The notes beneath the pieces are model-generated. The model had not been told where the DNA came from, did not search any database, and worked only from the letters and a program-made list of their open reading frames with translations. The translations under genes and the position numbers were made by a program. Positions 45,418 through 46,524 of a stretch of DNA of 64,000 nucleotides are shown one piece after another; position 1 is the stretch's first letter; each line of letters starts with the position of its first letter. The stretch lies in UHGV virus genome UHGV-0289908, one strand, 5' to 3'. The DNA comes from a virus.

Positions 45418-46524
45418 CTAGTAGTTCATTCCTTCAACAGAATAATTATACTCGTCTAAGAACGTATTCAAGTCATCAAGTGAAGATGGCACTGCCACTG
45501 CTCCACACTTGACCTGTTCCATTGCTTCGTCAACTTTTGTGATGGTATCTTCTGTTAAGTTTGGATTTTCCACTGGTAATCCAACACCATCCGCTTTGAT
45601 ATCCATTACAATCGTTTCTCCACCTTTGAAAGTGTTGTTTGCATGGTTTTCCACATGCTCATATGAAGCTCGTCCTAAATTCTTCATGGCAGATGTCAAG
45701 ATGACCGAACTACCATTGGAAATCAATCCTTCTGAATATTGGTCGATGTCAACTCCAACAATGTAAACGCTATCTCCAGACTCTGCTCGGCTCTTTGCTT
45801 CATTAATAGCTCCAACTCCGACTCCACCTGCTGCTTGCATGATAATGTCTGCTCCTTTATCATACATTGCTCCTGCAATAGCCTTTCCTGCGTCTACATC
45901 TGTGAATGTACCTTGATATAAATAGTCAATCACTTCAACATCTGTTCCGTAGATTGCATTGGCATAAGCCACACCTGCTACAAATCCCCATCCTAATTTT
46001 TGAACCGCAGGAACTTTCATTCCTCCAATGAATCCAACTTTGCCCGTTTGTGATTGTAAAGCTGACGCAACTCCCGTTAAGAAGCCTGCTTCATGTTCTG
46101 TGAAGAATACTGAGACGACATTGTCTCCAACTTCATAGTCCGACCCCACTAATGGAGTTCCATCAATCAATACAAAGTTGATGTCTGGGTAAATGGCTTG
46201 GGCTTGCCCTATGGCTTCTTCAAACTTGAATCCTGCCACAACAATGACCTCATTGCCTGCCATTACCAGATTATCAATGGCATTCATATAGTCTTGAGTT
46301 GACTCTCCGCTTGGTTGGATATATTGAATTTCTACGTTCTCATTATCTGCTTGATATTCCAATATTCCTTCCCAAGTCCCTTGGTTGAATGATTTGTCAT
46401 CAATAGTTCCAGAATCTGTAACCATCCCAACTTTTAATGTTGACTCAGATGGGGCAATCTCTTTTTTGCTACAACCGATTAGTGTGAATGCACACACTGC
46501 CAATAATAGTGTAAACTTTTTCAT
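45418..46524 (-). CDS. BMP-family (PnrA/TmpC/Med-like) nucleoside-binding lipoprotein, 368 aa from the corrected start
   Basis: Track ORF 45418..46569. A strong RBS GAGGAGGAAG lies 8 nt before the ATG at 46524. Signal peptide [18 protein letters not shown] with lipobox LIGC. N-terminus [24 protein letters not shown] matches the BMP-family signature. Confidence 0.75.
   Translation of the reverse strand: [368 protein letters not shown]

What the first reader, a model, noticed from the sequence alone, without database searches (positions are those of the whole stretch)
45418..46524. Phage-borne BMP-family (PnrA/TmpC/Med-like) nucleoside-binding lipoprotein
The gene has a clear lipoprotein signal (LIGC lipobox). 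Its mature N-terminus, [24 protein letters not shown], is the signature of the basic-membrane-protein family, whose members are substrate-binding components for purine nucleoside uptake. The family is cellular, so its presence among phage tRNA and transcription genes is unexpected. It could boost nucleoside salvage for phage DNA synthesis. Alternatively it could act at the membrane as a superinfection-exclusion or decoy protein.
Basis: partly seen in the sequence, partly recalled or inferred. Interest (0 to 1): 0.65.

Follow-up and report, generated by a model that had tools for sequence, protein, structure and literature searches.

The report
Phage-borne nucleoside-binding lipoprotein without a transporter
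A large gut phage carries an intact, strongly conserved copy of a bacterial nucleoside-catching surface lipoprotein but none of the membrane transporter it normally feeds; related phages keep the same gene beside their DNA-precursor enzymes, so it most likely helps the infected cell take up nucleosides for phage DNA synthesis.

Summary
ORF 45418-46524 (minus strand, 368 aa) encodes a lipoprotein with the lipobox LIGC (Cys18). It matches Pfam Bmp/PnrA (PF02608) at E=1e-68, and its closest solved relatives are nucleoside-binding PnrA proteins. The literature-defined ribose-binding and base-stacking residues are all present. The window is a roughly 154-kb SPbeta-like phage from a human gut metagenome.

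New here: the gene is an orphan. The window and related phage loci encode no ABC ATPase or permease. The protein belongs to a clade carried by phages and genomic islands (87% bootstrap). That clade's nearest cellular relative is a transporter-linked Turicibacter BMP.

The gene is under strong purifying selection (dN/dS 0.01-0.12). In relatives and in independent phage lineages, BMP lies beside or near ribonucleotide reductase, thymidine kinase, deoxynucleoside kinase or nucleoside deoxyribosyltransferase. One of these is the isolated Lactobacillus phage Ldl1.

Best explanation (about 0.6): an auxiliary metabolic gene. The phage supplies an extra substrate-binding protein to the host's nucleoside ABC importer, as cyanophage PstS does for phosphate. 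Superinfection exclusion is not supported but not excluded.

This is a new member of a known kind, of moderate interest.

The parts
45418..46524 (-). CDS of the BMP/PnrA-family lipoprotein (368 aa, stop codon included)
   Evidence: ORF listing. Pfam PF02608 at E=1.1e-68. PDB PnrA/TmpC at E=3.8e-52. AF2 model pLDDT 89.8, with Foldseek top hits PnrA, Lbp and BmpD.
46471..46524 (-). Signal peptide with lipobox L-I-G-C (residues 1-18; Cys18 is the predicted lipidated first residue of the mature protein)
   Evidence: Sequence [18 protein letters not shown]. Cys18 is invariant in alignment A1. Nearly all homologues extracted from the loci carry a lipobox.
46535..46540 (-). Shine-Dalgarno AGGAGG, 10 nt upstream of the ATG
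   Evidence: Read directly from the sequence.
46544..46765 (-). 73-aa ORF of unknown function. Its stop lies 19 nt before the BMP start codon, so it is probably co-transcribed.
   Evidence: No Pfam or PHROG hit.
46786..47079 (-). HU-like DNA-binding protein, probably the first gene of the same transcription unit
   Evidence: PF00216 at E=4e-7 and phrog_379. A terminator-like hairpin lies just upstream of this gene at 47136-47154.
45219..45310 (-). tRNA-Ser(GCT), 107 nt downstream of the BMP stop, with no terminator-like site reported between them
   Evidence: ARAGORN, Rfam tRNA at 50.9 bits, terminator scan.
45099..45172 (-). tRNA-Thr(GGT)
43970..44046 (-). tRNA-Met(CAT)

Best explanation
The gene is a phage auxiliary metabolic gene. 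It encodes an orphan substrate-binding protein for nucleosides.

Proposed mechanism: during infection the 368-aa precursor is exported, lipidated at Cys18 and tethered to the outer face of the Gram-positive host membrane. Its two-lobed fold closes on a (deoxy)nucleoside. Asp121, Asp259 and Lys281 would hold the ribose. Phe46 and Phe207 would sandwich the base. Asp37, Ser38 and Asn47 would contact the base edge. The loaded protein then docks on the host's own BMP-type ABC importer (one double-ATPase plus two BPD_transp_2 permeases). This raises the rate or affinity of nucleoside import. Kinases, which in related phages are encoded right next to the BMP gene, convert the nucleosides to nucleotides for replication of the roughly 154-kb phage genome.

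Shown here: family membership, lipobox, intact pocket, orphan status, purifying selection in phage genomes, membership of a phage-borne clade, and linkage to RNR, TK, dNK and NDT genes in other phages.

Inferred: export and lipidation, the actual ligand, docking on the host permease, timing of expression, and a benefit to burst size. The host is also inferred. Turicibacter or a relative is suggested only by the sister position of a Turicibacter operon-linked BMP and by a shared C-terminal tail.
For: (1) Family and fold. PF02608 at E=1e-68. The best solved relatives are all nucleoside-binding proteins (T. pallidum PnrA, S. pneumoniae PnrA, BmpA, C. thermocellum Lbp, BmpD) by sequence and by Foldseek on an AF2 model of pLDDT 89.8.

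(2) Pocket. The residues named in the literature for TmpC, BmpD and BmpA (PMC7093131; PMC13325309) map to query D37, S38, F46, N47, D121, F207, D259 and K281. D37, F46, D121, F207, G233, D259 and K281 are invariant in 141 close relatives, and N47 is kept in 137 of 141.

(3) Selection. dN/dS is 0.013 between the window and a variant contig, and 0.07-0.12 within the 41-kb phage group. The 24 sequence variants at >=90% identity occur on phage contigs of up to 154.6 kb in many samples.

(4) Orphan status. Homologues of the Turicibacter ATPase and permeases are absent from the window and from all phage and island loci, but present in 64-72 chromosomal loci. A profile scan of 2.9 M viral contigs for the permease found 3 contigs. 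None is a BMP-phage contig except one host-like operon.

(5) Guilt by association, in several lineages. L100/L101, a syntenic relative, has dNK then BMP 14 nt apart. L007, another syntenic relative, has RNR large - Trx - RNR small - BMP. L113 and L117 have RNR large - thioredoxin - RNR small - thymidine kinase - BMP. L107 has RNR - BMP. L120, L121 and L127 have an RNR large-subunit gene upstream of BMP, with a YqaJ-like gene between them in L120. L014/L125 has a thymidine-kinase homologue ending about 170 nt upstream of BMP. L123 has BMP with NDT 1.6 kb downstream. Lactobacillus phage Ldl1 has NDT 0.7 kb upstream and dNK 2.4 kb downstream.

(6) Origin. The phage/island clade is monophyletic (174/200 NJ bootstraps). 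Its sister is a Turicibacter BMP followed by an ATPase and two permeases. The two share a 22-23-aa C-terminal tail that most chromosomal homologues lack.

(7) Precedent. Cyanophage PstS is abundant in infected cells, uptake rises after infection, and modelling suggests it docks on host PstCA (bioRxiv 10.1101/2021.07.20.453049).
Against: The window itself shows no dNK, TK, RNR or NDT gene (tblastn). Here the BMP gene sits between an HU-like gene, a 73-aa ORF and tRNAs. About 79 kb of the genome could not be read.

The host is not identified, so the presence of a cognate permease is inferred, and the Turicibacter sister relation has only 52% bootstrap support.

The abundant 41-kb temperate phages carry the gene without any nucleotide-metabolism neighbour.

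A conserved pocket does not prove transport. In mycoplasmas the BMP-type lipoprotein P48 needs nucleoside binding, but not transport, for a different surface function (PMC12892991).

One pocket-lining position differs from cellular homologues. It is Leu177 where 72 of 78 chromosomal proteins have Phe, so specificity may differ from that of PnrA.

No binding, uptake or expression data exist.
Confidence: 0.6

Rival explanations
1. Lysogenic conversion. The biochemistry is the same (an extra nucleoside-binding protein feeding the host importer), but the beneficiary is the lysogen. The prophage would express the gene to improve nucleoside scavenging by its host in the gut.
For: SPbeta-like phages are typically temperate (my background knowledge, not tested here), and the window has an anti-repressor-like Bro-N gene. 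The closest homologues are abundant in 41-kb integrase-carrying phages and in chromosomal islands without phage structural genes nearby.
Against: In the 41-kb phages the gene lies at the end of the replication/recombination block. It is co-oriented with the lytic genes and sits just before the terminase, not in the lysogeny module. In the window and its relatives it lies in the long block that also holds the packaging and structural genes, and in relatives it is fused to RNR/TK/dNK cassettes that serve phage replication.
Confidence: 0.15
2. Surface function independent of transport. The lipoprotein would act at the membrane as a superinfection-exclusion, receptor-masking or entry-gating factor, possibly using nucleoside binding as a signal.
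For: Phage lipoproteins that block incoming phage DNA are known, for example Ltp-type proteins (from my own knowledge). The mycoplasma BMP-type lipoprotein P48 controls acquisition of a conjugative element through nucleoside binding without transport (PMC12892991). The gene is an orphan with no transporter partner in the phage.
Against: There is no similarity to any known exclusion protein. The only PHROG hit is a signal-peptide-only match at E=0.002. PADLOC was not searched. The full ribose- and base-binding pocket is kept under strong purifying selection. Repeated physical linkage to RNR, TK, dNK and NDT in independent phages is hard to explain by exclusion. The gene does not lie in a lysogeny module.
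Confidence: 0.12
3. Signalling role like B. subtilis Med. A membrane-anchored BMP-family protein would modulate a host kinase or regulator (competence or sporulation pathways) rather than transport.
For: Med belongs to the same family and its structure 2hqb is retrieved (E=1.9e-11; Foldseek rank 15). Med is also encoded without a transporter (my knowledge).
Against: The query is far closer to the nucleoside SBPs (E=1e-52 to 1e-33) than to Med. It keeps every nucleoside-contact residue. Its nearest cellular relative is operon-linked.
Confidence: 0.05
4. Recently captured host gene with no function for the phage (passenger DNA or an assembly chimera).
For: It is the only obviously cellular-type gene in this part of the window.
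Against: GC content and skew are continuous with the flanks. The same gene occurs at the same place on independent contigs of up to 154.6 kb from many samples. The nearest relative outside its own cluster is only 63% identical. dN/dS is 0.013. The gene occupies the syntenic slot in distant relatives of the phage.
Confidence: 0.03

Closest known systems
PnrA/TmpC of Treponema pallidum (PDB 2FQW) and PnrA of Streptococcus pneumoniae (PDB 6Y9U): nucleoside-binding lipoproteins of ABC importers
   Same: Same Pfam family. About 35% identity over the whole domain (E=4e-52 and 4e-45). Top Foldseek hits. Both are lipoproteins. The ribose-binding Asp, Asp and Lys, the two stacking Phe and the D-S...F-N loop are identical.
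   Different: Those proteins are encoded in operons with an ATPase and permeases, whereas the phage gene is an orphan. The phage clade has Leu at the position of TmpC Phe161, a roughly 6-residue loop insertion near residues 124-134 and a 22-aa C-terminal tail.
Chromosomal BMP of a Turicibacter sp. MAG (locus L018)
   Same: The closest transporter-linked cellular homologue (58% identity), sister to the phage clade in NJ trees. It shares the long C-terminal tail.
   Different: It is followed by a 509-aa ORF in the ATPase position and two BPD_transp_2 permeases. It keeps Phe at the Leu177 position. The sister relation has only 52% bootstrap support.
LDL_056 of Lactobacillus phage Ldl1 (KM514685), annotated 'ATP binding cassette transporter'
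   Same: An orphan BMP-family lipoprotein in an isolated phage, transcribed with a nucleoside deoxyribosyltransferase and a deoxynucleoside kinase. It has the same predicted role.
   Different: Only 29% identical, so it is an independent acquisition and the outgroup in the tree. Two pocket positions differ, Asn for Asp37 and Thr for Lys281. The phage type and host are different.
Cyanophage PstS (phosphate-binding protein of P-SSM2 and relatives)
   Same: A phage-encoded orphan substrate-binding protein thought to plug into the host's ABC permease and raise uptake of a precursor that limits phage DNA synthesis (10.1101/2021.07.20.453049). It is the closest functional analogue.
   Different: Unrelated protein family and ligand (phosphate). 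It is a periplasmic protein of a Gram-negative-type host, not a lipoprotein of a Gram-positive host. Its uptake effect has been measured, whereas nothing has been measured here.
Mycoplasma P48 (BMP-type nucleoside-binding lipoprotein needed for ICE acquisition)
   Same: A surface-exposed nucleoside-binding SBP-type lipoprotein whose relation to mobile elements is established (PMC12892991).
   Different: It is host-encoded, part of a transporter, and acts in the recipient of conjugation. Its relevance to phages is hypothetical.

Membership tests
BMP / PnrA family of ABC substrate-binding lipoproteins (Pfam PF02608) | Profile match above the curated threshold over the whole domain | tested here: met
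   231.9 bits against a cut-off of 24.1, E=1.1e-68, residues 32-338 on profile positions 3-291 of 301.
BMP / PnrA family of ABC substrate-binding lipoproteins (Pfam PF02608) | Two-lobed periplasmic-binding-protein fold matching solved members | tested here: met
   AF2 model pLDDT 89.8, pTM 0.86. The eleven best Foldseek PDB hits are chains of PnrA, Lbp and BmpD, probability 1.0, target-normalised TM 0.69-0.77. The rmsd of 4-7 A may reflect open versus closed lobe states.
BMP / PnrA family of ABC substrate-binding lipoproteins (Pfam PF02608) | Lipoprotein signal peptide with lipobox cysteine | tested here: met
   [18 protein letters not shown], with Cys18 invariant. Lipidation itself is not testable here.
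BMP / PnrA family of ABC substrate-binding lipoproteins (Pfam PF02608) | Nucleoside pocket: ribose-binding Asp/Asp/Lys, two stacking Phe, and the Asp-Ser...Phe-Asn loop (TmpC D27, S28, F36, N37, D108, F186, D238, K260) | tested here: met
   All eight are present as D37, S38, F46, N47, D121, F207, D259 and K281. Residue roles are taken from PMC7093131 and PMC13325309. One further pocket-lining Phe (TmpC F161 / BmpA F151) is Leu177.
BMP / PnrA family of ABC substrate-binding lipoproteins (Pfam PF02608) | Encoded with its ABC ATPase and two permeases | tested here: not met
   No ATPase or permease homologue in the 64-kb window or in any phage or island locus. The permease profile finds none on BMP-phage contigs. 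About 79 kb of this phage's genome was not visible.
BMP / PnrA family of ABC substrate-binding lipoproteins (Pfam PF02608) | Measured binding of a nucleoside | not testable with these tools
   Needs ITC, MST or mass spectrometry on the purified protein.
NCBIfam NF047927 ABC_BMP_B6 (putative vitamin B6 binding protein, equivalog) | Score above the equivalog cut-off | tested here: not met
   53.2 bits against a cut-off of 400. It is not a member of this subfamily.
Phage auxiliary metabolic genes of the orphan-SBP type (cyanophage PstS-like) | SBP gene in a bona fide phage genome, without its transporter, kept under purifying selection | tested here: met
   Phage hallmark genes in the window. Orphan status. 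dN/dS 0.013-0.12.
Phage auxiliary metabolic genes of the orphan-SBP type (cyanophage PstS-like) | Host possesses the cognate permease/ATPase on which the phage SBP can dock | tested here: inconclusive
   The host is unknown. The nearest cellular homologue (Turicibacter MAG) is operon-linked, but the sister relation is weakly supported.
Phage auxiliary metabolic genes of the orphan-SBP type (cyanophage PstS-like) | Uptake of the substrate rises on infection | not testable with these tools
   Requires infection experiments with labelled nucleosides.
Phage superinfection-exclusion lipoproteins (Ltp-type and similar) | Homology to a known exclusion protein, or location in the lysogeny module with prophage expression | tested here: not met
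   The only PHROG hit is a 36-residue signal-peptide match at E=0.002. In the temperate 41-kb relatives the gene lies between the replication and packaging modules, co-oriented with the lytic genes. Expression state was not tested, and PADLOC was not searched.

The most novel reading that the evidence does not exclude
The phage/island-borne BMP clade may not be a transport accessory at all. It could be a nucleoside-sensing surface factor that reprograms how the cell deals with incoming mobile DNA. This would parallel mycoplasma P48, where nucleoside binding but not transport decides acquisition of a conjugative element. On this reading the phage would display its own orphan BMP to gate or block entry of competing phages or elements, or to signal nutrient state to the lysis-lysogeny decision. 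The clade-specific changes (Leu177, a loop insertion, the C-terminal tail) would then be the functional surface. The evidence does not exclude this, because a conserved pocket is required under both readings.
Probability: 0.1. Interest if true: 0.75.

Novelty: new member of a known kind. Interest (0 to 1): 0.45.

Why it matters
If the mechanism holds, nucleoside import joins phosphate import as a host uptake system that phages upgrade by supplying only the cheap, exchangeable part, the binding protein. That would extend the familiar phage nucleotide-metabolism toolkit (RNR, thymidylate synthase, kinases) outward to the cell surface. It would make gut nucleoside availability a factor in phage productivity. 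It would also provide a family of surface-exposed phage-encoded markers of infected or lysogenic Firmicutes. The idea is directly testable with one recombinant protein and one uptake assay. It is nonetheless a logical extension of known biology rather than a surprise. The protein is an ordinary family member, and such genes are already present, unremarked, in public phage records.

Tried and rejected
- **Near-identity DNA search** of 12 kb around the gene against 50,697 phage records found no match. The phage has no sequenced close relative in that collection.
- **PHROGs** on the protein gave only a signal-peptide match.
- **NCBIfam** gave only a far-sub-threshold B6-binding equivalog, which I rejected.
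- **Apparent phage hits that are host DNA.** 'Enterococcus phage Efs 1-1-1' and 'Listeria phage LM 4-11-1' are UNVERIFIED_ORG contigs carrying the full ABC operon. IMG/VR contig 2585427814_000003 (L122/L130) does the same. L009/L116 is flanked by cytochrome b/c genes. None was counted as phage evidence.
- **My first ABC-ATPase motif regex** found almost nothing. I replaced it with tblastn using the Turicibacter ATPase and permeases.
- **Search for nucleotide-metabolism genes in the window.** tblastn with dNK, TK, RNR, Trx and NDT queries found none. The 10 kb beyond the right end and 4 kb beyond the left end also show none.
- **Rfam** on 42.5-47.5 kb found nothing in the 107-nt spacer between the gene and tRNA-Ser.
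- **A first bootstrap script timed out** and was rerun with a faster distance method.
- **Literature searches** for phage-encoded BMP or nucleoside SBPs found no paper describing one. The Ldl1 genome paper is not in the searchable library.
- **Mapping conservation onto the model surface** to test the permease-docking face was not possible, because model coordinates are not exposed to scripts.
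Full report
**1. What is there**

The minus strand carries an ORF from ATG 46524 to TAG 45418, encoding 368 aa. An AGGAGG lies 10 nt upstream of the ATG. The stop codon of a 73-aa ORF lies 19 nt upstream, so the ATG is the likely start rather than the in-frame TTG at 46569.

The N-terminus [18 protein letters not shown] is a lipoprotein signal with lipobox LIGC. Cys18 is invariant among 31 aligned homologues.

- Pfam places residues 32-338 in PF02608 (Bmp, 'ABC transporter substrate-binding protein PnrA-like') at E=1.1e-68, 231.9 bits against a cut-off of 24.1.
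- The only NCBIfam hit is a B6-binding equivalog at 53 bits against a cut-off of 400, so it is not that subfamily.
- Among solved structures the best sequence matches are T. pallidum TmpC/PnrA (E=3.8e-52), S. pneumoniae PnrA (3.5e-45), B. burgdorferi BmpA and BmpD, and C. thermocellum Lbp. Med and AtzT are far weaker.
- An AlphaFold2 model built on 31 sequences has pLDDT 89.8 outside the signal peptide. Its top Foldseek hits are the same nucleoside-bound structures.

**2. The surroundings are a phage**

PHROG and Pfam scans identify several phage genes:

- a portal (36003-37556);
- a terminase-containing ORF (37571-40621);
- a tail protein (10843-11901);
- a YonJ-like exonuclease and a YonG-like protein;
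- an HU-like protein, a GIY-YIG homing endonuclease, an anti-repressor and an ArdA-like protein.

Pfam marks precomputed on a near-identical contig name the SPbeta-type families YonD_N, YonG_N and YonJ_CC. The portal is 33-36% identical to those of large Firmicute siphoviruses. The 917-aa neighbour matches proteins of SPbeta-group, Clostridium c-st and Enterocloster phages. In some of those records it is annotated as an RNA polymerase.

Three tRNAs (Ser, Thr, Met) follow the BMP gene on the same strand, and the scan reports no terminator-like site between the BMP stop and tRNA-Ser.

The exact protein occurs on contigs of up to 154,609 bp. One of these comes from a human gut metagenome, and the window maps to roughly positions 86,680-150,679 of it. 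Base composition is continuous across the gene.

**3. The gene is an orphan**

In 62 of the 80 chromosomal loci fetched from reference genomes, BMP is followed by at least one permease-like ORF. The usual layout is an ATPase-sized gap of about 1.6 kb and then two permeases. For a Turicibacter MAG the two permeases were confirmed as BPD_transp_2.

tblastn with the Turicibacter ATPase and permeases hits 64-72 loci. It hits neither the window nor any genuine phage or island locus. A profile of the permease scanned over 2.9 million viral contigs found three contigs. None carries a phage BMP except one that holds a complete host-type operon.

Several 'phage' records that looked like precedents are host DNA carrying the whole operon, and I discounted them.

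**4. It belongs to a clade carried by phages and islands**

The database search returned the identical protein. The next best hit is only 63% identical, and the remaining listed hits (about 120 in all) fall at 57-65%. Many of them sit on contigs of 39-43 kb.

- One such contig is a complete-looking temperate siphovirus with integrase, ERF, RusA, SSB, terminase and SPP1-type portal genes. Its BMP gene lies between the replication block and the terminase.
- Others are large phage contigs that are syntenic relatives of the window phage: L007, L100 and L115.
- Others are orphan copies in chromosomal islands.

In NJ trees all of these form one clade (174 of 200 bootstraps). Its sister is the operon-linked Turicibacter BMP, with 103 of 200 bootstraps.

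The clade and the Turicibacter protein share a 22-23-residue C-terminal tail, where most chromosomal homologues have about 8 residues. This independently supports a common origin.

Phage BMPs at 29-41% identity (L011, L012, L014, L123, L126, Ldl1) branch elsewhere, so they represent separate captures.

**5. The protein is kept functional in phages**

| Comparison | dN/dS |
|---|---|
| Window vs a variant contig (dN 0.001, dS 0.091) | 0.013 |
| Within the 41-kb phage group | 0.07-0.12 |

Of the 115 columns that are at least 90% conserved in chromosomal BMPs, 84 are equally conserved with the same residue in the phage clade.

I took residue roles from the BmpD and BmpA papers (PMC7093131; PMC13325309) and mapped them through the TmpC alignment, where paper numbering equals chain index plus 15.

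- The ribose-binding Asp/Asp/Lys are D121, D259 and K281.
- The base-stacking Phe pair is F46 and F207.
- The base-edge loop residues are D37, S38 and N47.
- D37, F46, D121, F207, G233, D259 and K281 are invariant in 141 relatives, and N47 is kept in 137 of 141.

One pocket-lining position is clade-specific. It is Leu177 (116 of 141 in the clade) where 72 of 78 chromosomal proteins, TmpC and PnrA have Phe. This may shift specificity.

**6. What it most likely does**

The decisive evidence is gene neighbourhood in other phages.

| Locus | Relation to the window phage | Arrangement |
|---|---|---|
| L100/L101 | Syntenic relative | Deoxynucleoside kinase (PF01712, E=2e-36) ends 14 nt before BMP |
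| L007 | Syntenic relative | RNR large - thioredoxin - RNR small - BMP |
| L113, L117 | Same BMP clade | RNR large - thioredoxin - RNR small - thymidine kinase - BMP |
| L107 | Same BMP clade | RNR - BMP, with the kinase further upstream |
| L120, L121, L127 | Independent capture | RNR large-subunit gene upstream of BMP; a YqaJ-like gene lies between them in L120 |
| L014/L125 | Independent capture | Thymidine-kinase homologue (32% to the L117 kinase, tblastn only) ending about 170 nt upstream of BMP |
| L123 | Independent capture | Nucleoside 2-deoxyribosyltransferase 1.6 kb downstream |
| Lactobacillus phage Ldl1 | Independent capture, isolated phage | LDL_056 (BMP), with deoxyribosyltransferase LDL_060 0.7 kb upstream and deoxynucleoside kinase LDL_051 2.4 kb downstream |

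An extracytoplasmic nucleoside-binding protein placed next to the enzymes that phosphorylate or exchange imported nucleosides, and next to RNR, points to precursor supply for phage DNA.

The phage carries no permease. [quoted passage not shown]

I give this reading about 0.6. The steps not shown are export and lipidation, the ligand, docking, timing and benefit.

There are two weaknesses specific to this window. No dNK, TK, RNR or NDT gene lies in its 64 kb or in the 14 kb of flank I could see. And the host is unidentified.

**7. Rivals**

- *Lysogenic conversion (0.15).* This has the same biochemistry with a different beneficiary. It is favoured by the temperate 41-kb phages and the island copies. 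It is disfavoured by the gene's position among lytic genes.
- *Transport-independent surface role, such as superinfection exclusion (0.12).* It has no positive evidence here. It is kept alive by the orphan status and by the mycoplasma P48 precedent, where nucleoside binding without transport controls uptake of a mobile element (PMC12892991).
- *Med-like signalling (0.05).* Unlikely, for the reasons given in the structured fields.
- *Functionless passenger (0.03).* Effectively refuted by the evidence in sections 2, 4 and 5.

**8. Comparison with the known, and novelty**

The protein meets the tested sequence and fold criteria of the BMP/PnrA family: profile, fold, lipobox and pocket. It fails the contextual criterion of operon linkage, so it works like an SBP but is not part of a self-contained transporter.

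It is not novel as a sequence. A member of its own cluster is already named 'basic membrane protein A' by a public source, and Ldl1's homologue has been in GenBank under the label 'ATP binding cassette transporter'.

I found no paper describing a phage-encoded BMP or nucleoside-binding protein, or testing its role. The searched library does not cover most subscription journals.

The concept is a nucleoside analogue of the PstS case inside the most common class of phage auxiliary genes. I therefore file it as a new member of a known kind, with moderate interest (0.45). It is coherent, widespread and easily testable, but not surprising to a specialist.

Noticed in passing
window 48068-50821 (-): This 917-aa ORF has no Pfam hit but carries a DCDGD motif. 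It matches proteins of SPbeta-group Bacillus phages, Clostridium phage c-st, and Enterocloster and Thomasclavelia phages, some annotated 'RNA-dependent RNA polymerase'. It is probably a YonO-like single-subunit two-barrel RNA polymerase.
   Followed up: partly
window 37571-40621 (-): This 1016-aa ORF combines terminase-large-subunit PHROG hits with helicase/primase-like PHROG hits. On the near-identical contig L098 the same region is called as three genes of 202, 322 and 390 aa. This may reflect an intein or insertion, or a fusion or split difference between variants.
   Followed up: no
window 50821-51714 (-) versus L098 8071-9159: A GIY-YIG homing-endonuclease gene sits upstream of the 917-aa gene in the window. 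In the otherwise near-identical contig L098 it lies between the 250-aa gene and the HU-like gene. This looks like a mobile endonuclease that has moved between variants.
   Followed up: no
window 43298-43348 (-): Rfam '6A RNA' (RF02925) matches at 42.5 bits, just above its gathering score of 41.2 (E=5e-6). It lies in the intergenic region between the 84-aa gene and tRNA-Met.
   Followed up: no
query residues 347-368; L018, L100, L015, L102: The phage-clade BMPs and the Turicibacter operon-linked BMP share a 22-23-residue C-terminal tail (consensus roughly FLxExxYxxxxLxY; a helix at 349-358 in the model). Most chromosomal homologues end after about 8 residues. Its function is unknown.
   Followed up: partly
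L115 8001-9065 and L117 8001-9002: Two phage BMP variants inside the same clade have a diverged ligand loop: KVGFVSDVAGI(E/N)DGSFS(Q/E) instead of [18 protein letters not shown], with Asn47 replaced by Ser. This suggests altered ligand specificity within phage-borne BMPs.
   Followed up: no
L007 5738-6439 and 7336-8712: In a syntenic relative of the window phage, the RNR large-subunit gene matches in two pieces separated by about 0.9 kb. This is consistent with an intein or an intervening homing-endonuclease gene.
   Followed up: no
window 2845-10764 (-) and 20189-26749 (-): Two giant ORFs of 2639 aa and 2186 aa lie in the structural region. A faint collagen-repeat Pfam mark is recorded for the 2639-aa product on the source contig. 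They may be tail-fibre or tape-measure-type proteins. I did not examine them.
   Followed up: no
L016 8388-9503: One island copy of the orphan BMP (P0012, 63% identity) lies directly downstream of an IS605 OrfB/TnpB-like gene. This hints at how the gene moves between chromosomes and phages.
   Followed up: no
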